Of a DNA stretch of 64,000 nucleotides, positions 32,639-62,451 are shown in pieces. The translations under genes were made by a program, and so were the position numbers. The stretch spans positions 1 to 64,000 of IMG/VR virus record IMGVR_UViG_3300020442_000015; one strand, given 5' to 3'. Origin of the DNA: a virus. The notes beneath the pieces were generated by a model that was given only the letters and a program-made list of their open reading frames with translations, was not told where the DNA came from and did not search any database. Positions within the stretch are counted from its first letter, which is position 1, and each line of letters begins with the position of its first letter.

Positions 32639-32645
32639 TTAACAA

Positions 32646-38166: not shown

Positions 38167-38191
38167 ATACTATTGTAGAGACTAGGTTCCT

Positions 38192-39046: not shown

Positions 39047-39048
39047 TT

Positions 39049-40571: not shown

Positions 40572-40607
40572 TTGTATAAATAACACTAGGAGAATTCTTA
40601 AGGTCAA

Positions 40608-41408: not shown

Positions 41409-41421
41409 TTAAGGGGAAGCA

Positions 41422-41946: not shown

Positions 41947-41991
41947 TAAAATAGCACTTGTGCTATACTATATAAAGAAAGTGATTAAGTT

Positions 41992-47820: not shown

Positions 47821-47978
47821 TGAATTTTGACTCTGAAGAACTGAAGTATCTGCTCACAGTATTGGGCAGAACATCATCTTTCACCCGTGCTAGAGGTGAA
47901 CAAATCGATCACCCAACAATTAAACATCAACGTATTGAACGTAAAGTTCAAGATCAACTAAGACGTTTGCATCAATGA
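47820..47978 (+). CDS. Small hypothetical protein (52 aa, not in track)
   Basis: TGATG and ATGA coupling on both sides. Confidence 0.5.
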   Translation: MNFDSEELKYLLTVLGRTSSFTRARGEQIDHPTIKHQRIERKVQDQLRRLHQ

Positions 47979-48598
47979 AACTAACAATCGAAAATCCATT
48001 CGATACATTCTATAAGAAGGCAAAAGATGTCATCGTGTTTGATGATATTATTCCTGAGGTATACCAAAATTGGTTGATAGATTGTATCAAGAATGAAGAC
48101 CTGATGTGGCACCGTAAGGATGCTGCAATTAGTGATATGTTTGAGGATGATCCTCGCAATGGATTCTGCAACTTTCACTATCTCTTTGATAAGGATGAGG
48201 GTGGAGAGTTGAGTCCATTGTGTAATGCGTTTATGCCACTGGCATTGCAGTTTAGAGAGAAACTTCAGGCAGAATGTTTGTTTCGTATGCGTGTGAATTG
48301 TGTGCCTGCTTGGCACTCTAATCAAGTACAACTTCCACACGTTGATTCGTATCATTTTGAAGCGTGGAATGTTATCTACTACATTGATGACAGTAATGGT
48401 GATACAATCATCTATGATGAACGTACGAGAGATCATCAAGAATACTTGAAGATTGCAACGAGAGATATGTACACAGTTAAGACAGCAGTATCACCCAAGA
48501 AAGGACGTGCTGTTGCTATTAAAGGTGATCTCTTTCACGCTTCTACATTGCCAATGGGAACTTGGAGACCAGTGTTAAATATGGTAGTACATTCTTGA
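47975..48598 (+). CDS. 2OG-Fe(II) oxygenase
   Basis: PHVD, IYYIDDSNGDT, PKKGR...FH. Confidence 0.85.
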   Translation: MKLTIENPFDTFYKKAKDVIVFDDIIPEVYQNWLIDCIKNEDLMWHRKDAAISDMFEDDPRNGFCNFHYLFDKDEGGELSPLCNAFMPLALQFREKLQAECLFRMRVNCVPAWHSNQVQLPHVDSYHFEAWNVIYYIDDSNGDTIIYDERTRDHQEYLKIATRDMYTVKTAVSPKKGRAVAIKGDLFHASTLPMGTWRPVLNMVVHS

Positions 48599-48600
48599 TT

Positions 48601-49275
48601 ATGGATAAAGTCTATAAGGTATATGATGGTGACGCTCACTGTTTGTGGAGGTCACCTGTTGTTGTAAATGAACAAGATGAGATGATTGCACAACTTGGTC
48701 GTGCACATCGTCATTTCAAGAATACTTTCACTGGGTTCGATTCTTCTCTCACTGGTAATGAATTGACTCTTGGTGCTCTACCTAACTTGTTCTCACAACA
48801 GGAACAACGAGAGGATGACAAAGTATTTCTAGATGGTGAGAAGGATTTCAGTGGTTATAGGTTCTATAATATATTTGCACTGACAGCACCATCACCACTA
48901 TTTTGGCAACTATATCGTGACATTCAAACTGTAGTTCGCACAACACTTGCACACGATGAACCACTGTATATGCAATGTTGGATGAATTATCATACTCCTG
49001 ACAAGGTATTGAAGTGGCACGATCATAAGTTTCCATACCACGGTTATGTGAGTATTGATCCCAAGAATACCACCACTAAGTTTAGAAACGGTGAGGATCC
49101 TGTCCTCTATGAGATCAATAACGAAGTGGGAAACATATATTTTGGTGCTGCCCCAGGCAGGTATCACAAAGTATTCGTAAACGATGACTTCGGGGGTAGA
49201 CGAATTACCCTTGGATTTGATATAGTAGAGACGCCTGATCTTCCTGACGATCAGTTCTCACTAATCCCTATCTAA
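48601..49275 (+). CDS. 2OG-Fe(II) oxygenase-like protein
   Basis: QCWMNYH, LKWHDH, YHKV, RITLGFD. Confidence 0.78.
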   Translation: MDKVYKVYDGDAHCLWRSPVVVNEQDEMIAQLGRAHRHFKNTFTGFDSSLTGNELTLGALPNLFSQQEQREDDKVFLDGEKDFSGYRFYNIFALTAPSPLFWQLYRDIQTVVRTTLAHDEPLYMQCWMNYHTPDKVLKWHDHKFPYHGYVSIDPKNTTTKFRNGEDPVLYEINNEVGNIYFGAAPGRYHKVFVNDDFGGRRITLGFDIVETPDLPDDQFSLIPI

Positions 49276-49301
49276 ATACTGTTAAGCAACTTCGACAACT
49301 T

Positions 49302-49811
49302 ATGGACACACGAGTCACTAACTGGATGGATCGTTCTTGTGGTAGATGGACTTCATATCGTAGGTATATCTACACCAAGTTCAACAAACAAATTAAGTAT
49401 GAAACAACATTGATTTGTGACAAGAGATCTGACAACAGTTGGGGTAGTCAATGGTGTTCAAAAGATGAGGAAGGCAACTACTTCAGTGAAGGAGATATGG
49501 AACTATTCATCACTCCTGACAATAAGTGTGAGCGTTCCAGAGGTTATATGTCAGAAGAACCAGACACAAGTGACATCTCAGTGATCGATGATGATTGCCT
49601 TGTCTGGGAAACTTCGTATAATGGTATGACATTCCGCGAGGAGATTCGTCTCTGCGAGAATGACACCGTTAGGTTGAGACAAACCTACGGCAAGAAGTTG
49701 TCCGATGGGACAGTTTTTCTTGTTGGACAGTATTACGAAAAACGTTCTGGGGGGAACGAAAATGTACCTGAAGTCACAGATTCTGTCAGAGAATCAGAAG
49801 TGCATACTTAG
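49302..49811 (+). CDS. CpcS/CpeS-type phycobiliprotein lyase
   Basis: G.W.S.R near the N-terminus, RSRGY, T.Y.G..FREEIRL, R.RQT, GQY.E.R. Confidence 0.75.
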   Translation: MDTRVTNWMDRSCGRWTSYRRYIYTKFNKQIKYETTLICDKRSDNSWGSQWCSKDEEGNYFSEGDMELFITPDNKCERSRGYMSEEPDTSDISVIDDDCLVWETSYNGMTFREEIRLCENDTVRLRQTYGKKLSDGTVFLVGQYYEKRSGGNENVPEVTDSVRESEVHT

Positions 49812-52190
49812 AAAAGCACTTATGTTATATCTGGCAAATACGCACCGCAAGCACCACAACAAACAGATCAGTGACACTCAATTAACTGTCACAGAGTGCA
49901 ACCTCGATGAGATTGCAGATCTGCTACACTTAAGGCACGTCCTTAAATGACGACGCCTCTCTTTCTATCGGAGTCCGTACCTTTGGAAGTAAGAAACATT
50001 CTCAAGGCACTTGAAGTGGGTATGCCTGCAAAATGGGGCACGATTCAAGGAGAGATCGAGTACATTGGGGACGAATATCTCACCATTTGTGTTGCTTCTA
50101 AGGAGCAATGTGATGAGCATTGTTTTCGCAAAGAAACCAAATGTTGTGTTATAGTATATCAAGCGGACTGGGATGATCTTGAGATTGATCCTGCTGTCTT
50201 TCAATATAAGAAAGCATACAGGGGAAAAACTAACGATCACCCAGGAAACGAGATGCTCCCACCTACCGATCAACGATGAGAAACTACGCAACCGAAATGT
50301 ACACATACAACGACAAGTTGTATAAACAGATCTGTCTTTATTATGAACAAATTCAACGTGACGTGGAAGAAGCAAAAGAAACGAGGAAGTTTCTCAACTC
50401 AGCAAGTTACGTTCCTAAGTCTGTCGGACGCGGTATGGTACAGCACTGAGTTGCAATTAGATCCCAAATGTACTAAGATTGAAGTAATTCCGATCTTTCA
50501 CGATGACTGACGCCGAATCTGCTAAGATGTGGGAGAACCGTTATTGGTCTCTACGTCGATGGATTGAAAAACAACGTCTTGACATTGATTCAATGTCTGA
50601 CGATGATGCCACAGTTGACCTATTCTGGGAAACCCTTGTAATTGACAATCAAAATGATCGGAAACCTTGAACCTGAAGAACACGTTATGAGCGACAAATG
50701 TTTCACTCAAGAGGATCTATGGCAGTTAATGCAAACTCTCGGATGGGATGTTCGCAATGATAACATTGCCCTCGAAGTTGGCGGAACCTCAGTCTATATG
50801 ATTGATGGCGATGGAACTAAATGGGCACCAGTGAAAGGAACGAGAAAGTATAATAAAGATGCTTTCATCGTTATCAAGAACAGGAGTCGTGATCCTGTTG
50901 TACCATCTATGCCAATTCCTATTCAACAAGATGAACAAACTGAACAAAAGGGAGACGATCGCACTACAGACAGCAATGCAACTGATGTCAAAGCGTGATC
51001 AACAACTGCAAGAGAATCTTCTAAATATCTCCTACAGTAACCTGTTCGATAAACTAGAAGATTATGTCAATGCCATTGAGGAAACTGGCGAAACTCACGC
51101 CAGTGTCTGATCGTGCTAAACTACAGTTTGCACAAATAATGAACAACAATCCGATGTGTACTATTGAAGAACGTAGATCTGACGGTCGTACGTTCTTCTC
51201 TAGTCATCAAGAACCAGAGTTCTGGATGTGGTCGGATGGAAGAGATGATCCGCACTGGACTTATGAGCAACTTGCCTGATTTCTTCAAACAAACATCAGA
51301 TGCACCTTATGATCGCCACTGGTATAAGATCTGGTGCACTGATAATAGTGTTAAGATCGTAGAATCTTACGAGGAAGTTCAAACCGCTTGGTGGAACTTC
51401 AAACAATTTATTTCACATATTGAGGTGATTGATGCCAAACGAAACAGAGGGTCAGGCAGGGGATTCGCTTAAGATTGATGTAACTGACGACGGTCAAGTT
51501 ACCATCGACTGGGATCCAAACGATCCACAATGGGGATGGTTGTCTGCACTAAATGATGAACAATTACAGGAATTTGTAAACAATGCCTTATCACAACTTG
51601 TCGAATCCAGCAGTGAAGATGAACGAGATGGAGCAGATGATCTATGAGGTAGAATCACTGAGAGTCAGAGTATCTGGATCCACTGAGTTTACCAAGTCAC
51701 AGATCAACAGAATGCAAGATTTGCTTGCTATTGTACACCGAGACCTTATTCGTTGGAATGGAGATGTGCAACAATCCACAGACGTGTCCAGCGTGGATAC
51801 AATCGAATCTGGAGATACTGTCGAAGGTGAAGATACCTTGCGACACTCCGATGCATATTATGATTACTTCAGAAACCGATAAGAAAGTACACCAAAGCAA
51901 CAAATAGTAGTTAAGTTTGGTATTGTACTATACATAATAGTAGAGTTTAGCGAGGTGAAACGATGTCCCCTAAGTTTAACTTTATTATGTGATTGTTCTT
52001 TATGGAGTTTATGATGCACAACATCATTTCCAAAGATCAAATGGCAGAATGGAGACACTTTGAACACACTGTTGATACTTGTACTGAAGAACTTGACAAT
52101 GTGAACGACTACTTCGATTGCCTAATTGATTGTTCGATTGAAACTAAATCGCACGGAGAATGCAGGAGGATATGTAGAGAAATGCTATGA
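49762..52190 (+). other. Cluster of about 11 small hypothetical genes (e.g. 49762-49950, 49947-50279, 50654-50998, 51064-51279, 51263-51472, 51432-51647, 51619-51882, 52011-52190)
   Basis: Tightly coupled short + strand ORFs without recognisable motifs. Confidence 0.6.
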
Positions 52191-52243
52191 CACTCACGGT
52201 ACTGTCCACCGCCCTTGCCCCAGGGCGGTTTTTTTTGTATAAT
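52188..52243 (+). promoter_or_regulatory. Early-type promoter motif copy A with embedded terminator hairpin
   Basis: TGACA-N10-TGTCCAC-N28-TATAAT; CCGCCCT/AGGGCGG plus T-tract inside the spacer. Confidence 0.7.
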
Positions 52244-52266
52244 TATGGGACAGACGACAAACAGAC

Positions 52267-53508
52267 TTGACAATCACCCTCAGACCCCACCAGCAACGCG
52301 CTCTCGATGCAATGAGCACTGCCGATAAGGGTCAGATCATTGTGCCTACTGGTGGCGGCAAAACATTCATTATGATTCAGGATTGCCTGCGTCAACTTAA
52401 CAACGGTCCTAAGACTATTGTTGTTGTTGCTCCTCGCATTCTTCTTGCTAATCAACTCTGTGATGAGTTTATGCAGCAAGTTTCTAATACTTGGACACAC
52501 GTTGCACACTGCCACAGTGGTGAAACTCACTACTTCAGCACTACTAAGTCTCATAAACTTGCTCTCTTCGCTAACACTGCAAGAGCAGCAAATGAGTCTG
52601 TAATTATCTTCACAACCTATCATTCTCTTGCTCGTGTTGTTGATTCTGGCATTGATATTGATTGTGCTTATTTCGACGAAGCACATAACAGTGTCAAGAG
52701 GTCTTTCTTTGTTCCTACTGTCGCTGTTAGTGATCTCGCTAAGCGCACCTATTTCTTTACTGCTACTCCTCGCATTGCTCGTCATCATCGCGGGATGAAC
52801 AATGTGGACGTTTATGGTCCTATCATCGAGAATGTTCCTGCTCCTGAGTTGTTGAACAACGGCAGCATTATTGCTCCCACGATTGTACCTTTTGAGGTTG
52901 ATCTTAATCGTGACAAGAAAACAGCACATCACGCTGATGCTACCACTGTGCAGGATGTGATTGACCAACTCGATGATAATCACGCCGCTAAGGTGCTTGT
53001 AGCGGTCCCCAGCAGTCGTGTTCTCGGTAATATTATTGCCAAGACAGATTTGCTGTTTCAACTCAAGCAGCGCGGTTACAACGTGCTTCACGTTACATCT
53101 AAGTTCGGTGCATATGTCAACGATAAGAAGGTAAACCGTGAGCAATTCTTCGACACGTTGACTGCTTGGGGCAAGGATAAGGAGAAGAAGTTTGTTATCT
53201 TCCACTACAGTATTCTGTCTGAAGGTATCAACGTGCCTGGTCTTACCCACACAATTCTTCTTCGCAACCTGCAAATCGTTGAGATGGCACAAACAATCGG
53301 TCGTGTGATTCGTCTCGATCGTGATGATGCTGCTGACATTGCTGCTGGTAACATCGTTGCAGGTAAATTCTCTCTCTATCGTAAACCCACGGGTTATGTT
53401 TCTGTCCCCGTGTACAAGAACTATGGCAAGCGTACGATTCAGCGTCTCCAAAATGTGTGTGATGCTATCTTCGTCAAGGGTATCCCCCCTGAGTCGTTTG
53501 TTGCATAA
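52267..53508 (+). CDS. Superfamily 2 (DExH, ResIII-like) helicase
   Basis: LRPHQ, PTGGGKT, DEAH, FTATP, ILSEGINVP, QTIGRVIR. Confidence 0.92.
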   Translation: MTITLRPHQQRALDAMSTADKGQIIVPTGGGKTFIMIQDCLRQLNNGPKTIVVVAPRILLANQLCDEFMQQVSNTWTHVAHCHSGETHYFSTTKSHKLALFANTARAANESVIIFTTYHSLARVVDSGIDIDCAYFDEAHNSVKRSFFVPTVAVSDLAKRTYFFTATPRIARHHRGMNNVDVYGPIIENVPAPELLNNGSIIAPTIVPFEVDLNRDKKTAHHADATTVQDVIDQLDDNHAAKVLVAVPSSRVLGNIIAKTDLLFQLKQRGYNVLHVTSKFGAYVNDKKVNREQFFDTLTAWGKDKEKKFVIFHYSILSEGINVPGLTHTILLRNLQIVEMAQTIGRVIRLDRDDAADIAAGNIVAGKFSLYRKPTGYVSVPVYKNYGKRTIQRLQNVCDAIFVKGIPPESFVA

Positions 53509-53540
53509 ATAAGACAGGACACTAACACTGAGAAAAGTAA

Positions 53541-53969
53541 ATGGCATCCGAAACTGTTAATGGGCAGGCAGATCTCCTGCTTGCAAAGTTAGGTGAGAAG
53601 GCAAAAGCATACCGTCTCGCTAACATCAACAAGAGACTGACTGAGAGTTCTGTTGGTGTTGGATCCGCAGGATTAGGCGCTGGAGGTAGTGCTGACCGCA
53701 TCCAACAAAAGAAAGACAAAGTAGAAGCAAATCACGCCTCTGTTACTTGGCAATTCACCAAGGAAGATGGGCAAAACGGTGATCTTATCATCAAAGCGAT
53801 TGCACCCGCTGATAGAGGTGGATACACTAAAGTTTGGGGATACGTTGATGGTGAGACTGGTAAAGTTCGCCCTGATTTGAATGCAGCATATGTGGATGCT
53901 AACAGCATTAGTGACACATATAGAGCAGCATTCTTTGATAAAATTACACATTTAGGCACACACTGGTAA
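53541..53969 (+). CDS. Hypothetical protein
   Basis: ATAAATA late promoter near 53505; good ORF. Confidence 0.65.
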   Translation: MASETVNGQADLLLAKLGEKAKAYRLANINKRLTESSVGVGSAGLGAGGSADRIQQKKDKVEANHASVTWQFTKEDGQNGDLIIKAIAPADRGGYTKVWGYVDGETGKVRPDLNAAYVDANSISDTYRAAFFDKITHLGTHW

Positions 53970-53977
53970 ACCCCTTG

Positions 53978-54034
53978 TGCCAATTAGATAAAGTGTCCAC
54001 TGAACCACCCCACGGGGTGGTTTTCGTGTATTCT
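53978..54034 (+). promoter_or_regulatory. Early-type promoter motif copy B with embedded hairpin
   Basis: TGCCA-N11-TGTCCAC-N28-TATTCT; AACCACCCC/GGGGTGGTT hairpin. Confidence 0.7.
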
Positions 54035-54057
54035 ATGAGAGTCAAAGGAACAGCACT

Positions 54058-54354
54058 ATGGAACTCGATCACATCTGCGTCTACTTCGGTAAGGGATCTG
54101 ATGGTGAAGAATGGTCCATCACTGCTCGTGGATTCTCTACACCACGACAGGCAGAAAAGCACGGTCTGTTTATGATGCCAGTGCCTGGATGTTTCGGGTT
54201 CGCTGTTATCACTCAAGGAGAATCTGAAAGCGGTCCCTGCTTCTGGCAAGTTCGTGAAGATCTGAGCATCCTCCCTAACGATCGTTCGATCACAATGGGA
54301 GACTACAATAATTTCAAGATCACCACTCTCGTCGGTAAACTTCAGTACGTTTGA
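54058..54354 (+). CDS. Hypothetical early protein
   Basis: Downstream of promoter B; AAAGGA RBS. Confidence 0.65.
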   Translation: MELDHICVYFGKGSDGEEWSITARGFSTPRQAEKHGLFMMPVPGCFGFAVITQGESESGPCFWQVREDLSILPNDRSITMGDYNNFKITTLVGKLQYV

Positions 54355-54560
54355 TGACAATGACCACTGCAACTTTCCCCATCCTGAGTAAAATGATCCA
54401 CTCCAAAAGAATGATCCTCGACGTGATCGCAGAGAACCCACAAACTCACACATTGGACCGTACTCAAAAGTTTATGGTCTTCTGCAACGTTTGTGATAAT
54501 TTGTTGGATGAAGGTAGGATAACAAAAGCAAACCATAAAAGGTGGACCGAGATCGTGTGA
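54354..54560 (+). CDS. Hypothetical early protein
   Basis: F..VCDNLL.EGRIT motif. Confidence 0.6.
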   Translation: MTMTTATFPILSKMIHSKRMILDVIAENPQTHTLDRTQKFMVFCNVCDNLLDEGRITKANHKRWTEIV

Positions 54561-54613
54561 CAGTCGGCAAGGTGCCCACTATTGCCCCACAGCACCCCAA
54601 AATCGTGTATATT
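54558..54613 (+). promoter_or_regulatory. Early-type promoter motif copy C
   Basis: TGACA-N10-TGCCCAC-N28-TATATT. Confidence 0.7.
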
Positions 54614-54642
54614 AAGAGAGTCAAAGGAACGCACTGAACCAA

Positions 54643-54909
54643 ATGCAAGTCACCAACAACAACTGCATCGTTGATTATTTCCCCGAGGCATTTGTTGCTG
54701 AGGCAGATCCTATCAAAGGGATGCGAGTTACAATCAAACGTTTTGTCCGTCGTGTCACTTTCCGTGCTAATGGTATGAAATCATACAGCACGATTCTTCA
54801 CATCGAAGCGAAGCACGATTGGCAGTCTCGTATTGCTAACGGTGCTGAGGTTACTGGTTACAACACCGACAAATTGCCTTCCTCTGAGTATATGCCACTG
54901 TACTGCTGA
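54643..54909 (+). CDS. Hypothetical early protein
   Basis: Downstream of promoter C. Confidence 0.65.
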   Translation: MQVTNNNCIVDYFPEAFVAEADPIKGMRVTIKRFVRRVTFRANGMKSYSTILHIEAKHDWQSRIANGAEVTGYNTDKLPSSEYMPLYC

Positions 54910-54954
54910 TTATGTCAATCCTCTTTTATTCTGTCCTCTTCATTATTACTCACC

Positions 54955-55152
54955 GTGACTTCTAAATTCTACACAAAAGCGCAAGTTCTTCAACAATTCC
55001 GCTACAACTGGAAAGTTGCTTGTATGTCATCACCACGTTTGCGCGGAGATGTTATCGCAAAGCGCGAATCGTGGAGCAACTTTACTGATATGCTCTGCAA
55101 ATGCAATGAAATTAGTATGAATCAGTACGAAAGTTGGACCAACCCGTTCTGA
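54955..55152 (+). CDS. Hypothetical early protein
   Basis: W..FTD.LCK..EI...QY..W.NPF. Confidence 0.65.
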   Translation: MTSKFYTKAQVLQQFRYNWKVACMSSPRLRGDVIAKRESWSNFTDMLCKCNEISMNQYESWTNPF

Positions 55153-55154
55153 TA

Positions 55155-55210
55155 TGACAATCGCAGAGGTGTCCACTATCTTCACACAGGGCACCAATCT
55201 GCGTTAATAT
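55155..55210 (+). promoter_or_regulatory. Early-type promoter motif copy D
   Basis: TGACA-N10-TGTCCAC-N28-TAATAT. Confidence 0.7.
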
Positions 55211-55231
55211 ACATACATCGACAAAAGACCA

Positions 55232-55735
55232 ATGACTGTGACTCTCACTCCCGAACAACGTTATCAACAACTGTTTGAGCAGATGTATGAACTCTGCGAC
55301 CAACAGTCTTGGGGAGATCCTTTCTCTTACGCTCGTTCTCGTGAGATTCACTTAGCAGGCGTCTTGGGTCACACTATTGCTGACGATTATAGTGGTGCTG
55401 ATGCATACGATGAGGATGGTCCTTGTGAGTATAAATCAACAATCGGTAAAAATCTCACCGCTACATATAACGGTATCTCCGTTCAACCAACTTGGAAAGA
55501 TCAAGTCAATTATCTTATCAATGACAAGATCGGTAAGTATAAGAACCACTATTTCGCACGTTATCACCTTGGCAAGATCGTTGAGGTTTACAAACTTTCT
55601 GCCGATGATGTGCTTGCTATTCTTATACCTAACCTCAAGCGTCAGTACGAGAATCCCAGCAACCGCAAAGATCCTCGTCTCGGATATACTATCTCCAACA
55701 GGTATATCAAAGCAAATGGAACACGAATCGTCTGA
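55232..55735 (+). CDS. PvuII-like type II restriction endonuclease (PD-(D/E)XK)
   Basis: GADAYD..G..EYKS core; KIGKY...FARY..G.I.EVY.L and YI...GTRI segments align by eye with R.PvuII over the full length. Confidence 0.65.
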   Translation: MTVTLTPEQRYQQLFEQMYELCDQQSWGDPFSYARSREIHLAGVLGHTIADDYSGADAYDEDGPCEYKSTIGKNLTATYNGISVQPTWKDQVNYLINDKIGKYKNHYFARYHLGKIVEVYKLSADDVLAILIPNLKRQYENPSNRKDPRLGYTISNRYIKANGTRIV

Positions 55736-57308
55736 AGATTTCACCATCTCTTCAATCACTGAAACCAACGATTACACTGAAACAATGCAACAATCCATTG
55801 ATCTCCTCGGTGAACACTATATGGAGCAGATTTCACGACACGTTGAGAACAACGACCGCGACAGTGCTGATGCCATCTTCAAAGAATTTGTTGTCGATGG
55901 TATAGATCCAGAGGACGGATCTTACGAGTGGTTGTTTCTTGATGAAATCACAGTCTCCTGAGCAAACTTTCATTATTCTGACCAATGAACATCCAACTGA
56001 CTAACATCCAACGCGACGAGTTGATTGTCAACGCGGTTGACCAAATTGTGGAGGATATGGACATTGACGCTCTTCAACAGTTTGTGAAAGAAACTCTCGC
56101 GGAGGGTTATAGTCAATGCGGTGATCTTGAGTTGCTTGATACTGTGCTCCTAAATGTGTGTCACGACAATGTAGACGAGTTTGAAGAATTGACTGAAGAT
56201 GTACTCACTGAAGAACAACTCAATGTTTACATCGACGACAATAATCAAGGCGTCTGGGTTGACACTAAAGAAGAACCAAGCGAGGCAACGGGATGGCAGT
56301 GACACTTTGAGAATTGGTTTTCCCGTTTTGTATCACCACGAACTACCGCGCCCCAGGATCTGTGCAATCATACTGGTATGAACAAAACAAACAACGTGCT
56401 TCTCTTCTCTGACTCCAACCTGACTGAACTTCAGGATTTTATGTTTGACACGATGCTCCCTGCTGATGATTGTGTTGATTGGTTCTGCGATCGTTTCGAT
56501 GTTAGTGCAACCGATGACGTGATTGATTTCGTTGTTGATGCTCACTTTGCTTTCCACGGAGAATAATTATGAACGACATTTTTTCTGACATTCAAGACCA
56601 ACTAAATTCACTCTCAATCTACAAAAGACCAAATTATGATGTTCACAACTCCCAACGGAAAGCAACACTACTTCCCCGACCAACTTACCCCGTCCGAAGC
56701 AACAAAGCGGATGCAACGTGAAGAGCGTTGGTGTCAAGAACACCGCGACGAATTAGAGCGTGATTCTCAAGAACTTTTCGATCAAATGTTTGGAGGTTGA
56801 TGACAATGAGCGACAACATCAAGGACGTAACGAATTCACCTAAAGACTGGGAGGATTTTTGGCATTCACCTGAAAAATATGGGTCTTGGGATTACCTAGA
56901 CTCAGAATCTGAGGGTCTCGATGTTCCTAACCCTCACAACATTGATTCTGCTTATGTGCAAGACATTATTGCAGGTAAGGAAGTATTTCGACGCAAACAA
57001 TCGCCCCTCAATGATTGATGTTTTATTGCACCGCATTTGGTAATGTTCCCGAAGCAAAGTACCCAGCAACTGTATGGAATCACCGCAGCGAACATAACAC
57101 CAAAGAGGAGGCAATTCGCTCAGGTGACTTATCAATGGTTGAACCAACAACGATCGGATATGTTATCACTGAGGTCGATGATGTGCGTGGAGTTTGGATC
57201 ATTGTAGATGAGAAGAATGCAGGAGGGATGCAATACCAATGGGTTGAAGATGGCAAGATTCAGATCACTAAATCTACAGCATATCCGCTCCATTACTATC
57301 AAGAATAA
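55716..57308 (+). other. Cluster of small acidic hypothetical early genes (55716-55961, 55985-56302, 56378-56566, 56800-57018, 57018-57308)
   Basis: Short + strand ORFs. Confidence 0.55.
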
Positions 57309-57364
57309 ACCAGTTGACGAAGTGGCACAATACGATGGCACAGCGTCCTAAAATCGTGTATATT
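57308..57364 (+). promoter_or_regulatory. Early-type promoter motif copy E
   Basis: AACCA-N10-TGGCACA-N29-TATATT; shares AATCGTGTATATTAA.AGAGTCAAAG with copy C. Confidence 0.65.
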
Positions 57365-57390
57365 AAAAGAGTCAAAGAAATCACACCAAA

Positions 57391-57714
57391 ATGCGTAAGA
57401 TCGAAACCCAAATGAATGCCGCTCTCGCTAACAGCAAGAACTGGACATCTGGCAACACTTCTGTTCACTACAACGAAGAAAACAACACCTCTGTTGTTCG
57501 TCTTCACGGTAACAAAATTGCTGTCTTGGGTGATGACTTCCTTGAGATCTTTGATGGCGGTTGGCAAACAACAACCACCAAATCTCGTCTCAATGCTATC
57601 ATCAACTGCTTCTGCAATGGCGTGACTGATGGTGTTTTTCAAAAGAACTATGAGTGGTTCGTTCGTGACAACAATGTCGTGAAAGAATTCACCAACGGTT
57701 ACATCTTTGCCTGA
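57391..57714 (+). CDS. Conserved hypothetical early protein
   Basis: MRKIE.QM, LHGNKIA, GGWQTTTTKSRLNA. Confidence 0.75.
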   Translation: MRKIETQMNAALANSKNWTSGNTSVHYNEENNTSVVRLHGNKIAVLGDDFLEIFDGGWQTTTTKSRLNAIINCFCNGVTDGVFQKNYEWFVRDNNVVKEFTNGYIFA

Positions 57715-57795
57715 TTTCTTCAGAGGGTTTATATAATTGTATCTCCATCCGCGAGATCTCCCCTCTCTCTTTTTTTCCTCATCTCACTATCACAA

Positions 57796-57927
57796 ATGCG
57801 CCTCGCACTTACTGCCATTGTTGTTCTCCTCGGTGCTAATCTTGTTGTCGATTTACTTGACAGCAATCTGTCTGACGTTATCAACAATCGCCGTGAAACT
57901 ATTGAGCGCCAGATCAATCAATTATGA
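57796..57927 (+). CDS. Small membrane/secreted protein (43 aa, not in track)
   Basis: MRLALTAIVVLLGANLVV... Confidence 0.5.
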   Translation: MRLALTAIVVLLGANLVVDLLDSNLSDVINNRRETIERQINQL

Positions 57928-57983
57928 TTGACAATTAACTCTAAATAAGTTACACTTAGGGGATCAAATTGATCTCCTTTTTT
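57928..57983 (+). promoter_or_regulatory. sigma70 promoter with nested late promoter, followed by a terminator-like hairpin
   Basis: TTGACA-N17-TACACT with CTAAATA in the spacer; GGGGATCA/TGATCTCC plus T-tract. Confidence 0.6.
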
Positions 57984-58003
57984 ATTGTCGTTATTGCTCC
58001 ATT

Positions 58004-58648
58004 ATGCCTAACTTATCGGACAATTTTGAGTCGATTGCAACAACTAACGTCTACGGCGTGTTTCTGACACCTATTGGCGTATATCGCAACCCAGACCATA
58101 AAGAACATAAGCAACTAATTCTTGACTATATTCGGTCAATGAATCCCGAAGATGTGAACGTCTCGCCCCGTTCTGATATTAACACTGGTATCAAGCAATT
58201 AGGCGGGATGAATATACTTTCGACCCCAGAGTTAGCACCAATCAGAGAGACCATCTCTAAGGCGGTTCTAGAGGTCAATGACGGAGGATTAGCATATGAT
58301 ATGCAACAACCAGTCTTCACAGATTCTGTTCTTGAGTTAGCAGATAAGGGATCATTCTACGCGCCCCACGAGTATTCCAATACTGTCTATAGTGGCGTCT
58401 ATTATGTTAATTTCGATCACGATCAACATAGTCAACTAAAGTGGAAAAGATGCATCGGTTCGCCTTTCTATCCGATCGTACAAATGCCACAAACTAAGAT
58501 CACTGCTTTCAATCAATTAGATACACAAATCCCCACAGAAGAAGGAGACATTGTTATCTTCCCCTCTAATCTTTCCCACGGGTATGAATCAAACACTCAC
58601 GGGAATAGAATTACTTTGTCCTTTAATGTTGCCCCTTGGTCAGAATGA
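58004..58648 (+). CDS. 2OG-Fe(II) oxygenase (TIGR02466-like, possibly altered metal motif)
   Basis: HEY..TVYSGVYY, IFPSNLSH, RITLSFN. Confidence 0.8.
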   Translation: MPNLSDNFESIATTNVYGVFLTPIGVYRNPDHKEHKQLILDYIRSMNPEDVNVSPRSDINTGIKQLGGMNILSTPELAPIRETISKAVLEVNDGGLAYDMQQPVFTDSVLELADKGSFYAPHEYSNTVYSGVYYVNFDHDQHSQLKWKRCIGSPFYPIVQMPQTKITAFNQLDTQIPTEEGDIVIFPSNLSHGYESNTHGNRITLSFNVAPWSE

Positions 58649-58980
58649 ATCCTTTTACTAAAATCAACGAAAATACCTACCAAGATATGGCAGGAGTGTT
58701 ATACAAACCTATCCCACAATACGAAGATTATTTTGTATCAAGTGATGGAGAGATCTATTCAACTAAGTGGGGTAAATGGAAACGCCTTAAAGTTCATCTA
58801 AATGAAAACGGTTATAGAAGAGTAACCCTCAGACAAGAGGGGCGGACAGTAGTAAGAAGATGCGCCAGATTGACCGCTCTTGCTTTTCATCCTGCGGACT
58901 CTAATCATACCAACGTTTTTCACATCGACGGAGACAAAGTGAACGACCATTATACTAACTTAAGATGGGGACAAGAGTAA
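58645..58980 (+). CDS. NUMOD4-HNH endonuclease-like protein (short)
   Basis: YFVSSDGEIYS; HIDGDKVNDHYTNLRW. Confidence 0.8.
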   Translation: MNPFTKINENTYQDMAGVLYKPIPQYEDYFVSSDGEIYSTKWGKWKRLKVHLNENGYRRVTLRQEGRTVVRRCARLTALAFHPADSNHTNVFHIDGDKVNDHYTNLRWGQE

Positions 58981-58983
58981 TAG

Positions 58984-59028
58984 TTTTCCACAATGTTTTC
59001 CACAAAAGGTATCAATCTCTGTGGAAAA
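58984..59028. repeat. Three TTTTCCACA boxes (cyanobacterial DnaA-box consensus)
   Basis: + strand 58984-58992 and 58996-59004; - strand 59020-59028. Confidence 0.75.
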
Positions 59029-59099
59029 TAAATGGTTAAATAAATATACTCTCGAATTTTATCTTTCGCCTTAAATGTACGGAACTGATGTGACCTTAG

Positions 59100-59128
59100 A
59101 CTCTACTCTATCGCGAGACAGTTGTCAA
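59100..59128 (-). promoter_or_regulatory. Leftward sigma70-like promoter with no downstream gene
   Basis: Minus strand TTGACA-N17-TAGAGT. Confidence 0.5.
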
Positions 59129-59163
59129 CACTCAGAGGACGGAAGAGAAATTGACACAAACCA

Positions 59164-59192
59164 TTGACATTTTCGGAGGTTTTCCTTATAGT
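59164..59192 (+). promoter_or_regulatory. sigma70 promoter
   Basis: TTGACA-N17-TATAGT. Confidence 0.75.
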
Positions 59193-59233
59193 TCCTAAGT
59201 AGTCCAGTTCTGCACATTATTGCCGACAATCTG

Positions 59234-59428
59234 ATGGGTCGCACTTACAAACGCAATGACACGTATAGGTCAAATAGACCGAAATCTTTGAGGGAAAAAC
59301 GATCAACAAGAACCCGCACTAAGTATGATCAATTCAATGACACATACAAGGGTGAACAACACAATCGAACAAACAGTAAGCAACAACTAGACAACAATGA
59401 TTTCGACGGAGATGTATTCAATGGTTGA
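59234..59428 (+). CDS. Basic hypothetical protein
   Basis: MGRTYKRN; downstream of a promoter. Confidence 0.6.
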   Translation: MGRTYKRNDTYRSNRPKSLREKRSTRTRTKYDQFNDTYKGEQHNRTNSKQQLDNNDFDGDVFNG

Positions 59429-59563
59429 CCCTAATGAGTATCAACAACTAGACAACGATTGGATAGATGAATTCCTCGAAGATGACTCGGATGATGTCTT
59501 TGAAGATCTCGAATTTGATGATCAATCAGGGGGAGATATTGACATCGATTACACTACACAAGA

Positions 59564-59752
59564 ATGAAACGATTTGAGTTCTTATGTGAACTAATGGAGG
59601 CACAATCTCTGCCTCCTTCGGAGTTAGTGGAGTGGGCACAATTTGTGCTTGACACTGAGATCGAACCGTGGTACACTAAGTATCATAAACTATTAGATTA
59701 TTGCGTCTCGGAGGGTATGTGCTACCACGTGCAATCCTCTGAGGGTTATTGA
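59564..59752 (+). CDS. Hypothetical protein
   Basis: ORF. Confidence 0.55.
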   Translation: MKRFEFLCELMEAQSLPPSELVEWAQFVLDTEIEPWYTKYHKLLDYCVSEGMCYHVQSSEGY

Positions 59753-59870
59753 CATTTTTCGCATATTAAAAAGGGACCCGCTCTGCAACCTACAACAGTA
59801 TAGGGTCGCATATATTATCGAAAACGCATTTATGGGTCCCCCCATATACAAAATTTTTTTCTGGTAAAAA

Positions 59871-60296
59871 ATGACCAAAAGAGTCCGTTTAGCATTTGAG
59901 GAAGAGTATTCTGAGTTCCTCGGAAGGGAGTGGGGAGGACAACGAGGAGGTGGGTGTTTCCGCCTGCTGTATGACGTTGGAATCGCTCTGGGCATCCACG
60001 AGTGTAAGGAAGACTATTCATTCAACCACCGAGCGTTCCTGAGGGACCTCTGGGAGGACGAAGGATGGGAGGTGTTCAGGGAATCAGAGATGGGTGAGCA
60101 GTTCGACCTCGGAGATTTGAAAAAATGGGATGTGTTGCTGATGAACCTCGGCAGCAATCGGTTAAATCACGGGGCACTGTACTTAGGGGATGGTTATATC
60201 TTACATCACAAAGCATTCGATATTAGTCGCGTGGAAAAAGTTCAAACATACATAGCTTCAACAATGTATGTTATTAGGAAACGGGATGTCTCGTAG
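59871..60296 (+). CDS. NlpC/P60 (C40) family peptidase
   Basis: GCFRLL catalytic Cys; DVLLM...NHGALYLGDG.ILHH. Confidence 0.8.
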   Translation: MTKRVRLAFEEEYSEFLGREWGGQRGGGCFRLLYDVGIALGIHECKEDYSFNHRAFLRDLWEDEGWEVFRESEMGEQFDLGDLKKWDVLLMNLGSNRLNHGALYLGDGYILHHKAFDISRVEKVQTYIASTMYVIRKRDVS

Positions 60297-60447
60297 ATTT
60301 ATTCTTACGATTGACGAAGATGACCACGGCGATCTCTTTGTCACACTACCCGATGAGTTAACAGAAGAACTTGGATGGCTCATTGGGGATACACTACAAT
60401 ACCAAGTCGATGATGAAACCCTTGTTGTAACTAAACTGGATGAATAA
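60286..60447 (+). CDS. AbrB/MazE/SpoVT-like small DNA-binding protein (53 aa, not in track)
   Basis: GDLFVTLPDELTEELGWLIGDTL.Y.V....LVV. Confidence 0.7.
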   Translation: MSRRFILTIDEDDHGDLFVTLPDELTEELGWLIGDTLQYQVDDETLVVTKLDE

Positions 60448-60759
60448 ACTGACATTAGACCAGAAGAAACTGATCTTTGATGCTGTTCGTTACTATCAGA
60501 TGAATGCGATTGGACCTTTTAAGGAAAGACGCTATAATGAATGCGACAAGATTCTACAGCAACTTGAATCCTCCAGGAAGTTTTATGAAAAAGGCGAGTG
60601 CGACATCTAAGTGGGAGATCTCTCTCACTGATGAAGAGCGTAAACTTATCTGCAACTCAGGTAAGTGGGCTCTTATTTACAAGGCAGATGTTTGTGGTGG
60701 CAAGGAACTGGAGAAGGTACAAGCATTATGGCGTTCTATTCGTGAAAAACTAGGAGAGT

Positions 60760-61311
60760 ATGATGACAGTCCCTTCGTTGGAGGTAATTGACAATTTCTT
60801 GCCTGAAGATTTGTTCTACAAGATGCAAGAACAGATTTGTGGAGATCAATGTTTTCCTTGGTATCTGAATCACGCGAAGGTGATGCACGTTGCTCGTGCA
60901 TTTGATCCAGAACTACAAGCGAAGGAATTATACAACTGGCAAATGGTGCACAAGTTCTATGAGTTAGGTAGACCACAATCCCAGGAGTGGGAATACATCT
61001 TACCTCTCATTAACTACTTGCGACCTCGTGCCTTAATACGGATCAAAGGAAATTTGAACCATCACACGGATAGTATGATAGAGTATGACTATCACACAGA
61101 CTGTGGAGAGTATGGTATGAACGACTTTGAGGGGGCAACCACTGCGGTGTTCTATCTGAATACCTGCGATGGTTATACCTTCTTCAAGGACGGTACGAAG
61201 GTGAACTCGGTAGAGAACCGACTTGTTCGTTTCCCTGTTGATACACCACACGCTGGCACATCTACAACTGACCAGAAGTTTCGTTTTGTCCTAAATTTGA
61301 ATTATTTCTGA
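60760..61311 (+). CDS. 2OG-Fe(II) oxygenase
   Basis: YHTD, FYLNTCDGYT, NRLV.F....H, RFVLNLNYF. Confidence 0.88.
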   Translation: MMTVPSLEVIDNFLPEDLFYKMQEQICGDQCFPWYLNHAKVMHVARAFDPELQAKELYNWQMVHKFYELGRPQSQEWEYILPLINYLRPRALIRIKGNLNHHTDSMIEYDYHTDCGEYGMNDFEGATTAVFYLNTCDGYTFFKDGTKVNSVENRLVRFPVDTPHAGTSTTDQKFRFVLNLNYF

Positions 61312-61387
61312 TATATAAGGGGAAGTAAAACGGTTCTAGGGGCACCCCCCGCGAGCGTTTTCCCTATACTAATACATTAAACATACT

Positions 61388-62200
61388 ATGACATTTGGCA
61401 CAAACTTCGATCCAGACTACGATTACAATCCAAACTTCATACAACCAAAAGGCACCAGACAAAACACTGAACTAAAAGATATACTCGATATACCCTATAC
61501 AGTACCAGGAGAGCTAGTTACATCCCTACCTGGGGAGAAGTGGAAACTAGCGCGTGTAGTAGAATACGGTAAGGAGATTATCCTACCGTGGTATCACGTC
61601 AGTAACTTAGGGCGTGTGATTAGTCATATCCGCCATAACCGTACGCCATTGTATCGTTCGGGTAATCGGTGGGGTTATGACGAGAACCGTATCTGCAACG
61701 GTAAGATGAAGAAGTTCGGTTCACCTAATAAAGGGAGGAACGCAGCAGTTGAAGACTATCACTGGAAACTCTTCCTGAAGGTAGTGCACTGGGGTTTACT
61801 GGAACCAATCTGGTTGGATGAGGCAAAGACTAAACAGTCTGCTTCATCTGAAAGACAAGAGAAGGATCTACCTATCCATAGACTTGTCATTGACACCTGG
61901 GCACCTATCTACGAGGTGGATCCCGACATTCCTGCAGAGATGCTAGAAGCAATGAGATGGCACTCTATGCCTAAGGAAGGCAAACTGTGGATGAACCCTA
62001 TGTTTGAAGTTGATCATAGTGGTGAAGAACAGAACTCACTTGACAACAGAGTGCACAAACTTCGTCGTACTACTGGGGGCGACAACAACCGTGCGGCATT
62101 GATTGCACGTGGAGGTAGTCACGCTAATCCTATTCAGGCACGTGTCACGACTTCAAAACCCAAAGAAACCCCAACCCTCGAAACCTTTTTTGTAAAATGA
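61388..62200 (+). CDS. NUMOD4/HNH homing endonuclease-like protein
   Basis: EKWK, YHVSNLGRVIS, IHRLV, EVDH...N..DN. Confidence 0.7.
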   Translation: MTFGTNFDPDYDYNPNFIQPKGTRQNTELKDILDIPYTVPGELVTSLPGEKWKLARVVEYGKEIILPWYHVSNLGRVISHIRHNRTPLYRSGNRWGYDENRICNGKMKKFGSPNKGRNAAVEDYHWKLFLKVVHWGLLEPIWLDEAKTKQSASSERQEKDLPIHRLVIDTWAPIYEVDPDIPAEMLEAMRWHSMPKEGKLWMNPMFEVDHSGEEQNSLDNRVHKLRRTTGGDNNRAALIARGGSHANPIQARVTTSKPKETPTLETFFVK

Positions 62201-62451
62201 CCCAAACACCACCTGCTATTCCAGAATTTGAAACCTATGAGGAGGAGATTGAATGGAGATTCGGCAAGATCGCTGAGAGCATCAAGACTCTTGCGGAACG
62301 TAGTCAATCAACAGAAGCGTTCCTACAGAGGGGTGCTGATATGATTCAGTACAAGATCCCAGGTCACACTGAGTATTCAAACTTACGTCAGATCTTTGAC
62401 GATCTCTATTCCAGAATAAATACACTGGAAGAGAAACTTAACAGTGACTAA
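62197..62451 (+). CDS. Hypothetical coiled-coil protein
   Basis: YKIPG...FDDLYSRIN.LE. Confidence 0.65.
   Translation: MTQTPPAIPEFETYEEEIEWRFGKIAESIKTLAERSQSTEAFLQRGADMIQYKIPGHTEYSNLRQIFDDLYSRINTLEEKLNSD

What the first reader, a model, noticed from the sequence alone, without database searches (positions are those of the whole stretch)
55155..55735. Orphan PvuII-like restriction endonuclease under an early promoter: possible host-DNA-cutting system without a methyltransferase
Seen: a 167-aa ORF directly behind early-promoter copy D, with no methyltransferase nearby or anywhere in the window. Established knowledge (R.PvuII sequence recalled from memory): its GNDAVD..GQEYELKS, IAKYR..WIFAIY.G..IEAIYRL and YVMEHGTKIY segments line up colinearly with GADAYDEDGPCEYKS, IGKYKNHYFARYHLGKIVEVYKL and YIKANGTRIV here; the N-terminal helix and D.F motif also match. 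Inference: the window appears purged of CATG, CCGG and unforced GGCC, so the phage may express a sequence-specific nuclease early to fragment host or competitor DNA while protecting itself by site elimination rather than methylation.
Basis: partly seen in the sequence, partly recalled or inferred. Interest (0 to 1): 0.8.

Follow-up and report, generated by a model that had tools for sequence, protein, structure and literature searches.

The report
Methylase-less PvuII-like nuclease, CATG-free cyanophage
This marine cyanophage carries an intact relative of the restriction enzyme PvuII without the partner methylase its relatives usually have, and its DNA contains no CATG at all, so the enzyme most likely cuts CATG in host or rival DNA while the phage is safe because it has no sites.

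Summary
The ORF is real: 55232-55735 (+), 167 aa. It is a true PvuII homologue. A profile of 47 relatives hits R.PvuII at E 5e-8 over its full length. The AlphaFold model (pLDDT 93.5) matches PvuII at Foldseek E 2e-8 and Z 14.3. D57/E66/K68 align with PvuII D58/E68/K70, but the DNA-reading loops differ.

The family is not orphan in general. In most cyanophage relatives a small NPPF (adenine-type) methylase lies directly downstream. The window's lineage lacks it.

Every well-sampled methylase-less carrier has zero CATG: 0 observed against 1358 expected in 397 kb. Carriers with the methylase have 699/1604. The nearest relatives without the gene have 2166/1384. No other 4-6-mer discriminates.

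CCGG and GGCC depletion is shared by all cyanomyoviruses examined and is unrelated to this gene.

Best reading: a CATG-specific type II nuclease that has lost its methylase, with self-protection by complete site purge.

Not shown: the cut site, early expression and the target (host or rival DNA). The methylase-less carriers form essentially one clade of the nuclease tree. The contig is only 54% complete.

Follow-up agents of this scan reached the same reading on other genomes. I found no paper describing it.

The parts
55155..55215 (+). Promoter-like module: TGACA-N10-TGTCCAC dyad-like box, then a -10-like TAATAT about 28 nt downstream.
   Evidence: Regex scan finds four + strand copies at 52188, 53978, 54558 and 55155, each ahead of a gene start, and one other match in 99.5 kb. 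The consensus scan lists TTCACA-18-TAATAT ending at 55210. Related dyad + TATAAT modules precede the gene in many other phages. Function as an early promoter is inferred, not shown.
55232..55735 (+). PvuII-like PD-(D/E)XK restriction endonuclease gene (167 aa plus stop).
   Evidence: ORF. PHROG 35715 at E 5e-79. 1350 homologous protein clusters. Profile hit to R.PvuII at E 5e-8 over full length. Foldseek E 2e-8, TM 0.63-0.73. VIA Z 14.3 over 148-153 residues.
55400..55435 (+). Catalytic segment encoding D57...E66-Y-K68.
   Evidence: D57, E66 and K68 are invariant in 24 relatives and at least 90% conserved in 47 diverse relatives. They align with PvuII D58/E68/K70 (residue roles from established knowledge of PvuII).
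55463..55486 (+). Invariant TYNGISVQ loop, aligned to PvuII's major-groove recognition strand (FSTHHH).
   Evidence: T78-Q85 are invariant in carriers with and without the methylase. The loop aligns to PvuII 'KGFSTHHH'. The different residues imply a different specificity. Invariance implies one specificity across the cyanophage family (inference).
55667..55678 (+). Invariant KDPR loop, aligned to PvuII's second recognition segment (INNPK).
   Evidence: K146-R149 are invariant; alignment.
1..64000 (.). CATG-free genome: the proposed self-protection half of the system.
   Evidence: CATG 0 observed against 237-241 expected in the window and 0 against 343-376 in the 99.5-kb contig. Avoidance is achieved by synonymous choices in all three frames: His before a G-starting codon is CAC 127 times and CAT 0 times; no codon before Met ends in C (0/449); NCA|TGN occurs 0/719 times.

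Best explanation
The gene encodes an active type II restriction endonuclease of the PvuII lineage. By analogy with PvuII it is likely a homodimer that reads a palindrome. Its reading loops differ from PvuII's, and its recognition site is most likely the 4-bp palindrome CATG.

In most T4-like cyanophages that carry it, it forms a two-gene restriction-modification module. A small NPPF methylase, inferred to be N6-adenine specific and to protect CATG, lies directly downstream.

The window's lineage has lost that methylase. It is protected because every CATG has been removed from the genome by synonymous and intergenic changes.

The gene sits in the early region behind a promoter-like module. The enzyme would cut unmethylated CATG-bearing DNA in the infected cell. 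Host chromosomes have about one site per 230-370 bp, and most co-infecting cyanophages also carry CATG. The phage's own DNA would be spared.

Shown here: homology, fold, conserved catalytic residues, methylase linkage in relatives, and the CATG pattern.

Inferred: the cut site, enzyme activity, timing of expression, and whether the target is host or rival DNA.
For: Homology and fold:
- Profile A2 against PDB sequences hits PvuII at E 5e-8 to 8e-8 (single-chain PvuII 1.8e-16), spanning query 10-165 and PvuII 14-157.
- AlphaFold2 model has pLDDT 93.5. Foldseek's top 12 hits are all PvuII, at E 2e-8 to 1.5e-6. VIA Z is 14.3 for PvuII against 10.8 for the next family.
- D57/E66/K68 are invariant.

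Linkage to a methylase:
- In P-TIM68 the gene lies between a PF01555 methylase and a small NPPF methylase.
- In most of loci L020-L082 the small methylase lies directly downstream, usually 17-37 nt after the aligned end of the nuclease gene.
- Of 73 loci found through that methylase, 56 hold the nuclease and 49 have it adjacent.
- Among 50,697 phage records, the methylase at 80% identity or more occurs only in P-TIM68, P-SSM5 and P-SSM2. These are the same three phages that carry the nuclease.

CATG (observed/expected):
- Methylase-less carriers: 0/376 (own contig), 0/662 (G001, complete), 12/690 (G002, complete). All 12 sites in G002 lie in the last 2.4 kb of the contig.
- Carriers with the methylase: P-SSM2 310/638, P-TIM68 505/607.
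- Four non-carriers: 249-388 observed against about 360 expected.
- Of all 4-6-mers, only CATG, words containing it, and GATATC separate the two groups of whole genomes. GATATC fails in other methylase-less loci and is also low in the nearest non-carriers.
- Pooled loci: 0/1358 (methylase-less), 699/1604 (with methylase), 2166/1384 (no nuclease). The next most discriminating 4-mer differs only two-fold.
- 27 of 29 methylase-less loci have zero CATG; Mann-Whitney p = 7e-11 against loci with the methylase.
- The nearest backbone relatives (70-76% identical in the neighbouring helicase) lack the gene in records up to 112 kb and have CATG at or above expectation.

Other support:
- The candidate reading loops (TYNGISVQ, KDPR) are invariant in carriers with and without the methylase.
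- Host Synechococcus and Prochlorococcus have CATG at expectation.
- Neither the nuclease nor the small methylase was found in 301 genomes of the host family, apart from one weak partial nuclease hit.
Against: - There is no biochemical evidence, so the cut site is inferred from genome composition only.
- On the nuclease tree the methylase-less, CATG-free loci fall in one well-supported clade. Methylase state changes only 3 times, and the independent-pairs test has no power. The association therefore rests on one or two evolutionary events, although at least eight diverged sub-lineages maintain it.
- One locus is an unresolved exception. L071/G029 has an intact nuclease gene, no methylase in the 29 kb seen, and 50 CATG in 31 kb. 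The contig ends 1.5 kb upstream, and in P-SSM2 the methylase lies 6.5 kb upstream.
- Many carriers with the methylase are also CATG-poor (median O/E 0.37, four at zero). A host CATG restriction system could produce this too.
- CCGG is also absent from the phage, so absence alone does not single out CATG.
- The own contig is 54% complete.
- The window's protein itself does not reach Pfam PF09225.
Confidence: 0.65

Rival explanations
1. Ordinary restriction-modification system. The cognate methylase lies in the unassembled 46% of this genome, as in P-SSM2 where it is 6.5 kb from the nuclease gene. The gene would then not be orphan.
For: The contig is 54% complete. In P-SSM2 the two genes are separated. 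Complete relatives carry a Dam-class methylase far from the nuclease gene.
Against: Two complete genomes with a 71%-identical nuclease (G001 with terminal repeats, and G002) have neither the small NPPF methylase nor any PF01555 or PF00145 methylase. Their only recognisable methylase is the Dam-class one, which non-carriers also have. With zero CATG there is nothing for a CATG methylase to protect. Three other contigs of the same phage population also lack a methylase within 10 kb.
Confidence: 0.1
2. The nuclease recognises some other word missing from the phage, such as CCGG. The CATG purge is driven by a CATG-cutting host restriction system. On this view the CATG purge and the missing NPPF methylase have nothing to do with this nuclease.
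For: CCGG is 0 in all phages examined and common in hosts. Many carriers with the methylase are CATG-poor. CATG-free loci make up about 10% of phoH-neighbour loci whose nuclease status is unknown.
Against: None of the 25 helicase-neighbour loci or the 4 isolate genomes without the nuclease is CATG-depleted. The adjacent partner has an NPPF motif typical of adenine methylases, and CCGG and GGCC contain no adenine (motif rule from established knowledge). If the site were CCGG, no carrier would need the tightly linked methylase. CATG is the only word that tracks methylase loss.
Confidence: 0.12
3. Modification-dependent nuclease of the type IV / IIM kind, like NhoI, Eco15I or DpnI, which share the fold. 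It would attack methylated foreign DNA and so would need no methylase.
For: NhoI, the Eco15I N-domain and DpnI are the next structural matches (Z 10.8, 10.0, 7.4). Such enzymes are normally solitary.
Against: Sequence evidence favours PvuII by seven orders of magnitude (E 5e-8 against 0.44 for Eco15I). A directly adjacent methylase in most relatives is hard to reconcile with a methyl-dependent cutter. Such an enzyme would give no reason to purge CATG.
Confidence: 0.05
4. No longer a restriction enzyme. It would be a structure-specific nuclease (resolvase-like) or an inactive DNA-binding relic kept for another role.
For: Hjc and RecU resolvases share the catalytic core (Z 6.7-8.0 over about 96 residues). 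No activity data exist.
Against: The match to PvuII is full length and includes the N-terminal helices, whereas resolvases match only the core. The catalytic triad and both candidate reading loops are invariant over about 1350 protein clusters and in methylase-less lineages. Genome-wide CATG removal implies an active sequence-specific threat.
Confidence: 0.06

Closest known systems
R.PvuII (Proteus vulgaris, type IIP, CAG^CTG; Pfam PF09225; PDB 1pvi, 1f0o, 3ksk)
   Same: Same size (167 against 157 aa). Homologous over the full length (profile E 5e-8). Same fold (Z 14.3). Same D...E-x-K catalytic residues at equivalent positions.
   Different: About 18-20% identity. The window's protein misses the Pfam model. 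The residues aligned with PvuII's DNA-reading segments differ (TYNGISVQ and KDPR in place of FSTHHH and INNPK). CAGCTG occurs 5 times in the phage contig, so it is not an isoschizomer. The inferred site is the 4-bp CATG. The usual partner is a small NPPF methylase, not a PvuII-type N4-cytosine methylase. Here there is no partner at all.
Chlorovirus restriction-modification systems, e.g. R.CviAII/M.CviAII (C^ATG, m6A) (own knowledge)
   Same: Virus-encoded type II nuclease acting on a 4-bp site, thought to degrade host DNA early in infection. CviAII recognises the same word, CATG.
   Different: Chloroviruses protect their DNA with a cognate methylase. Here the methylase is missing and the site itself is gone. 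I ran no comparison with R.CviAII.
R.PacI (TTAATTAA), a restriction enzyme with no cognate methylase in a host genome that lacks the site (own knowledge, not checked here)
   Same: A methylase-less restriction enzyme tolerated because its own genome has no sites.
   Different: PacI is an HNH enzyme with an 8-bp AT-rich site that is rare by composition in a GC-rich bacterium. Here a 4-bp word expected about 350-700 times per genome has been actively removed from a phage.
Restriction-site avoidance in virulent phages (classical; own knowledge)
   Same: Complete loss of short palindromes through synonymous changes. CCGG, GGCC and AGCT avoidance in all cyanomyoviruses examined fits this classical, host-driven kind.
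   Different: The CATG purge tracks the phage's own nuclease gene and the absence of its methylase, not a clade of phages or hosts. The selecting enzyme appears to be the phage's own.

Membership tests
PvuII-like restriction endonucleases (homologues of R.PvuII) | Significant sequence similarity to R.PvuII over the whole protein | tested here: met
   Profile of 47 relatives against PDB sequences: PvuII at E 4.7e-8 to 8.4e-8, query 10-165 against PvuII 14-157. The single sequence and a narrower 24-sequence profile did not reach it.
PvuII-like restriction endonucleases (homologues of R.PvuII) | Score above the gathering cut-off of Pfam PF09225 (Endonuc-PvuII) | tested here: not met
   No hit for the window's protein at E<=1. 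8 of 24 relatives hit weakly (best E 1.2e-4). P-TIM68's copy scores 18.5 bits against a cut-off of 25. I therefore file it as a distant homologue outside the current Pfam model, not as a PF09225 member.
PvuII-like restriction endonucleases (homologues of R.PvuII) | PvuII fold, including the N-terminal helices | tested here: met
   Model pLDDT 93.5. Foldseek E 2e-8, TM 0.63-0.73. VIA Z 14.3, rmsd 3.6 A, 148 of 152 residues.
PvuII-like restriction endonucleases (homologues of R.PvuII) | Catalytic Asp ... Glu-x-Lys | tested here: met
   D57, E66 and K68 are invariant or at least 90% conserved. They align with PvuII's GNDAVD...EYELKS.
PvuII-like restriction endonucleases (homologues of R.PvuII) | Recognition of CAGCTG (isoschizomer of PvuII) | tested here: not met
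   CAGCTG occurs 5 times in the methylase-less phage contig. The residues aligned with PvuII's reading segments differ. This is indirect evidence; no cleavage assay was done.
PvuII-like restriction endonucleases (homologues of R.PvuII) | Homodimer | not testable with these tools
Type II restriction-modification system (nuclease plus cognate methylase) | Cognate methyltransferase gene linked to the nuclease gene | tested here: not met
   None in the 99.5-kb contig and none in the complete relatives G001 and G002, apart from a Dam-class methylase shared with non-carriers. The feature is met in most other carriers.
Modification-dependent nucleases with PvuII-like fold (NhoI, Eco15I, DpnI) | Closer similarity to these enzymes than to PvuII | tested here: not met
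   Z 10.8, 10.0 and 7.4 against 14.3 for PvuII. Eco15I scores E 0.44 against 5e-8 for PvuII.
Holliday-junction resolvases (Hjc, RecU) | Full-length structural correspondence | tested here: not met
   Only about 96 core residues align, at Z 6.7-8.0.

The most novel reading that the evidence does not exclude
A phage-borne 4-bp restriction enzyme has outlived its methylase. A lineage of marine T4-like cyanophages evolved from a nuclease-plus-methylase state, through progressive CATG depletion, to complete removal of about 350-700 CATG sites per genome and loss of the methylase. Self versus non-self is then encoded purely in genome composition. The nuclease serves as an early weapon that shreds host chromosomes and co-infecting CATG-bearing phages. 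The enzyme would also be the first PvuII-fold CATG cutter, possibly a blunt cutter (CA^TG).
Probability: 0.5. Interest if true: 0.8.

Novelty: new variant of a known kind. Interest (0 to 1): 0.72.

Why it matters
If the enzyme cuts CATG, several things follow.

- It explains an extreme and otherwise puzzling feature of a subset of abundant ocean viruses: not one CATG in about 180 kb. The cause would be the virus's own weapon, not host defence.
- It gives a natural example of a restriction enzyme kept without a methylase, through complete site elimination of a frequent 4-bp word. The intermediates are still visible in nature as methylase-bearing carriers with CATG at about 0.4 of expectation.
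- It points to a mechanism for host-DNA breakdown or inter-phage exclusion in cyanophages, which as I recall lack T4's denA/denB-type host-DNA nucleases.
- It offers a new specificity on the well-understood PvuII scaffold, useful for studying how a 6-bp reader becomes a 4-bp reader, and possibly as a reagent.

The prediction can be tested directly with cultured phages (P-SSM2, P-SSM5, P-TIM68) and cell-free expression.

Tried and rejected
Searches that gave nothing:
- Pfam and NCBIfam scans of the protein: no hit.
- phmmer of the single protein against PDB: only a chance nitrogenase hit at E 0.18.
- The 24-sequence profile A1 against PDB: no PvuII hit. The more diverse profile A2 was needed.

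Candidates rejected:
- Weak tblastn methylase hits at window 8.7-10.4 kb: these are 2OG-Fe(II) oxygenase and PhoH genes.
- GATATC as the recognition site. It is absent from the three methylase-less genomes. However, it is present in other methylase-less loci (L006 4, L014 6, L024 5), and it is also near zero in the nearest non-carrier relatives. It is a lineage effect.
- CAGCTG (PvuII's own site): 5 copies in the contig.
- CCGG and GGCC: absent or depleted in all cyanomyoviruses, including non-carriers.
- L057 as an exception: it has a different NPPY methylase directly downstream.
- 'No methylase at all in complete relatives': corrected, because a Dam-class D12 methylase is present there and in non-carriers.

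Weak or failed tests:
- The independent-pairs test on the nuclease tree has too few contrasts, only 3 pairs.
- A genome-contig scan with the window's bilin-lyase-like protein found nothing.
- Literature searches found no paper on a PvuII-like nuclease or CATG avoidance in cyanophages.

Full report
**1. The object**

Window 55232-55735 (+) is an uninterrupted 167-aa ORF with an ATG start. The window is the first 64 kb of a 99,495-bp IMG/VR contig of a T4-like cyanomyovirus, which CheckV rates 54% complete.

The bipartite element TGACA-N10-TGTCCAC starts at 55155, 77 nt upstream of the ORF start. About 28 nt after it comes a -10-like TAATAT. The same element occurs at 52188, 53978 and 54558, each before a gene start. 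It occurs only once elsewhere in the 99.5 kb.

In many other phages the homologous gene is preceded by that lineage's own dyad plus TATAAT module. The gene therefore looks like a separate transcription unit of the early-gene type.

**2. What the protein is**

Direct searches were blank: Pfam, NCBIfam and a single-sequence search of PDB gave nothing. PHROG 35715, of unknown function, matches at E 5e-79.

The protein has about 1350 homologous protein clusters in metagenomes and 423 IMG/VR contigs encode a relative. Among 50,697 phage records it occurs only in Prochlorococcus phages P-SSM2, P-SSM5 and P-TIM68, where it is annotated as hypothetical.

Evidence for homology with PvuII:
- Eight of 24 relatives touch Pfam PF09225 (Endonuc-PvuII) below its cut-off.
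- A profile of 47 diverse relatives hits R.PvuII in PDB at E 5e-8 over the full length, and single-chain PvuII at 1.8e-16.
It places D57, E66 and K68 on PvuII's GNDAVD...EYELKS, that is D58/E68/K70 (residue roles from established knowledge).
- These three residues are invariant in 24 relatives and at least 90% conserved in 47.
- An AlphaFold2 model (pLDDT 93.5) matches PvuII first: Foldseek E 2e-8 and TM 0.63-0.73, VIA Z 14.3 over 148-153 residues.
- The next matches are the methyl-dependent NhoI and Eco15I (Z 10-10.8). After them come resolvases, which match only the core.

The segments aligned with PvuII's DNA-reading elements are different here: TYNGISVQ and KDPR. They are invariant within the cyanophage family. 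CAGCTG occurs five times in the contig.

Conclusion: a true PvuII homologue with an intact active site and a different specificity that is uniform across the family.

**3. Orphan or not**

The contig has no PF00145, PF01555 or PF02086 methylase. It has no tblastn match to five cyanophage methylases. The motif scan found only one [DNS]PP[YFW] match, at the start of a frame at 14396-15514 that no methylase search hit.

The family is not orphan, however.
- In P-TIM68 the gene sits between a PF01555 methylase and a 176-aa NPPF methylase.
- In P-SSM2 the NPPF methylase lies 6.5 kb upstream.
- In most of loci L020-L082 the NPPF methylase follows the nuclease gene directly.
- Starting from the methylase, 56 of 73 new loci hold the nuclease and 49 have it adjacent.
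- Among cultured phages the methylase (80% identity or more) occurs in exactly the three phages that have the nuclease.

This is a restriction-modification gene pair. One locus, L057, has a non-homologous NPPY methylase in the same position.

The window's nuclease belongs to a well-supported clade (SH-aLRT 96) in which the methylase is missing. Two complete genomes of that clade are G001 (182 kb, with terminal repeats) and G002 (187 kb). They have neither the NPPF methylase nor any PF01555 or PF00145 methylase. Their only recognisable methylase is a Dam-class D12 enzyme. Non-carriers S-E7, Syn19 and S-SM1 have that enzyme too.

**4. Which word is missing**

I compared whole genomes, giving CATG as observed/zero-order expectation:

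| Group | Genome | CATG |
|---|---|---|
| Methylase-less carriers | own contig | 0/376 |
| | G001 | 0/662 |
| | G002 | 12/690 |
| Carriers with methylase | P-SSM2 | 310/638 |
| | P-TIM68 | 505/607 |
| Non-carriers | S-E7, Syn19, S-SM1, Syn30 | 249-388 / about 360 |

All 12 CATG sites in G002 lie in the last 2.4 kb of the contig.

Of all 4-, 5- and 6-mers, only CATG, words containing it, and GATATC are below 0.1 of expectation in the first group and above 0.3 in every other genome. GATATC drops out for two reasons. It is present in other methylase-less loci, and it is also near zero in the nearest non-carrier relatives.

Across 80 loci, 27 of 29 methylase-less loci have zero CATG (23 observed against 1558 expected). 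Loci with a methylase have 699/1604, with a median O/E of 0.37 (Mann-Whitney p = 7e-11).

Pooled over non-redundant loci, CATG is:
- 0/1358 in 397 kb of methylase-less loci;
- 699/1604 in loci with a methylase;
- 2166/1384 in 395 kb of loci from the nearest backbone relatives without the gene.

The next most discriminating 4-mer differs only two-fold.

Those relatives are 70-76% identical in the helicase gene 1.7 kb upstream. They lack the nuclease in records of up to 112 kb.

In the window's phage the purge is made by synonymous choice in all three frames, shown here against non-carrier relatives:

| Context | Window's phage | Non-carrier relatives |
|---|---|---|
| His codon before a G-starting codon | CAC 127, CAT 0 | CAT 149, CAC 47 |
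| Codon before Met ending in C | 0/449 | 85/342 |
| NCA followed by TGN | 0/719 | 67/698 |

CCGG is zero, and GGCC and AGCT are strongly depleted, in every cyanomyovirus examined, carrier or not. Those purges are not tied to this gene.

**5. Reading**

The simplest account has four parts.
- The module's specificity is CATG.
- The NPPF methylase protects CATG. The motif is typical of N6-adenine enzymes (established knowledge), and CCGG and GGCC contain no adenine.
- Selection by the phage's own nuclease depletes CATG even when the methylase is present.
- Once CATG is gone, the methylase is dispensable and is lost, while the nuclease stays under purifying selection.

Marine Synechococcus and Prochlorococcus have CATG at expectation, 53-100 sites per 20.5 kb. 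Neither gene of the module was found in 301 genomes of the host family, apart from one weak partial hit. Host DNA and most co-infecting cyanophages would therefore be substrates.

Whether the pay-off is nucleotide scavenging, host shut-off or exclusion of rival phages cannot be decided from sequence.

**6. Limits**

- There is no cleavage, methylome or expression evidence.
- On the nuclease tree, methylase state changes only three times and the paired test has no power. The association is therefore one or two historical events. It is nonetheless maintained in at least eight diverged sub-lineages with GC 33-43%, which needs continuing selection.
- L071/G029 is unresolved. It has an intact gene, 50 CATG in 31 kb and no methylase seen, but the contig ends 1.5 kb upstream.
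- Eight of 80 phoH-neighbour loci are CATG-free, but the contigs are too short to show whether they carry the nuclease.
- A host CATG restriction system could contribute to the depletion.
- The own genome is incomplete.

**7. Prior knowledge**

Full-text searches found no paper describing this gene family or CATG avoidance in cyanophages. A metaepigenomic study reports m4C motifs (RGCY, CCWGG, GGWCC) and several methylases per genome in marine Myoviridae-like genomes (PMC8919816). That fits the PF01555 enzymes seen nearby, not this module.

Earlier notes of this scan show that follow-up agents reached the same CATG reading on other genomes. I derived it independently, before reading those notes. 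They are not independent evidence.

**8. Verdict**

- Observation: confirmed.
- Interpretation: supported, and sharpened to CATG.
- Class: a new variant of a known kind, namely a PvuII-lineage type II nuclease with a new inferred specificity that is kept without a methylase through complete site purge.

Noticed in passing
window 1-64000 and all phage genomes compared: CCGG is completely absent from every cyanomyovirus examined, carriers and non-carriers alike (0 against 156-357 expected). GGCC and AGCT are several-fold to about 50-fold depleted. Host Synechococcus and Prochlorococcus have these words near expectation. This is a general, presumably host-driven, avoidance unrelated to this gene.
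   Followed up: partly
window and contig G000: This phage alone also lacks ATTAAT, CAATTG, TTATAA, TTTAAA and ACTAGT (0 against 30-49 expected). The complete relative G001 has them at 35-54 copies. The cause is unknown.
   Followed up: no
G001, G002 versus all other phages: TTCGAA is 0 in the window's phage, P-SSM2, P-TIM68, S-E7, Syn19, S-SM1 and Syn30, but normal in G001 and G002 (44/57, 58/58). GTAC is 0/362 in S-SM1. CGCG and GCGC are 0/189 in P-SSM2. TCGA is 11/607 in P-TIM68. Each phage has its own set of purged words.
   Followed up: no
G002:C1:185063-187347 (L106): All 12 CATG of this otherwise CATG-free 187-kb genome lie in the last 2.4 kb of the contig. This could be a chimeric assembly end or a recently acquired segment.
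   Followed up: partly
L057:10514-12551: Here the nuclease gene is followed directly by a 539-aa NPPY methylase and a 141-aa ORF with an AdoMet-binding-like motif. This is a non-homologous replacement of the usual small NPPF methylase.
   Followed up: partly
window 52188, 53978, 54558, 55155: Four copies of TG(A/C)CA-N10/11-TG(T/C)CCAC, each about 25-28 nt before a -10-like hexamer and a gene start. Copies 1 and 2 have a GC hairpin plus T-run in the spacer. Analogous dyad plus TATAAT modules precede the nuclease gene in other phages.
   Followed up: partly
G001:C1:94892-95761; G002:C1:153406-154272; also P-SSM2, P-TIM68, S-E7, Syn19, S-SM1: A Dam-class (PF02086, DPPY) methylase of about 290 aa is present in all complete cyanomyoviruses checked. 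GATC is over-represented, for example 601 against 376 expected in the window's contig.
   Followed up: partly
L002:9197-9985 and many loci: A DUF6267 protein (P-TIM68 gp052 homologue) often lies within a few kb of the nuclease-methylase module.
   Followed up: no
window 8705-9915: Two tandem 2OG-Fe(II) oxygenase-like ORFs lie between thyX and phoH. They gave spurious weak tblastn hits to the small methylase.
   Followed up: no
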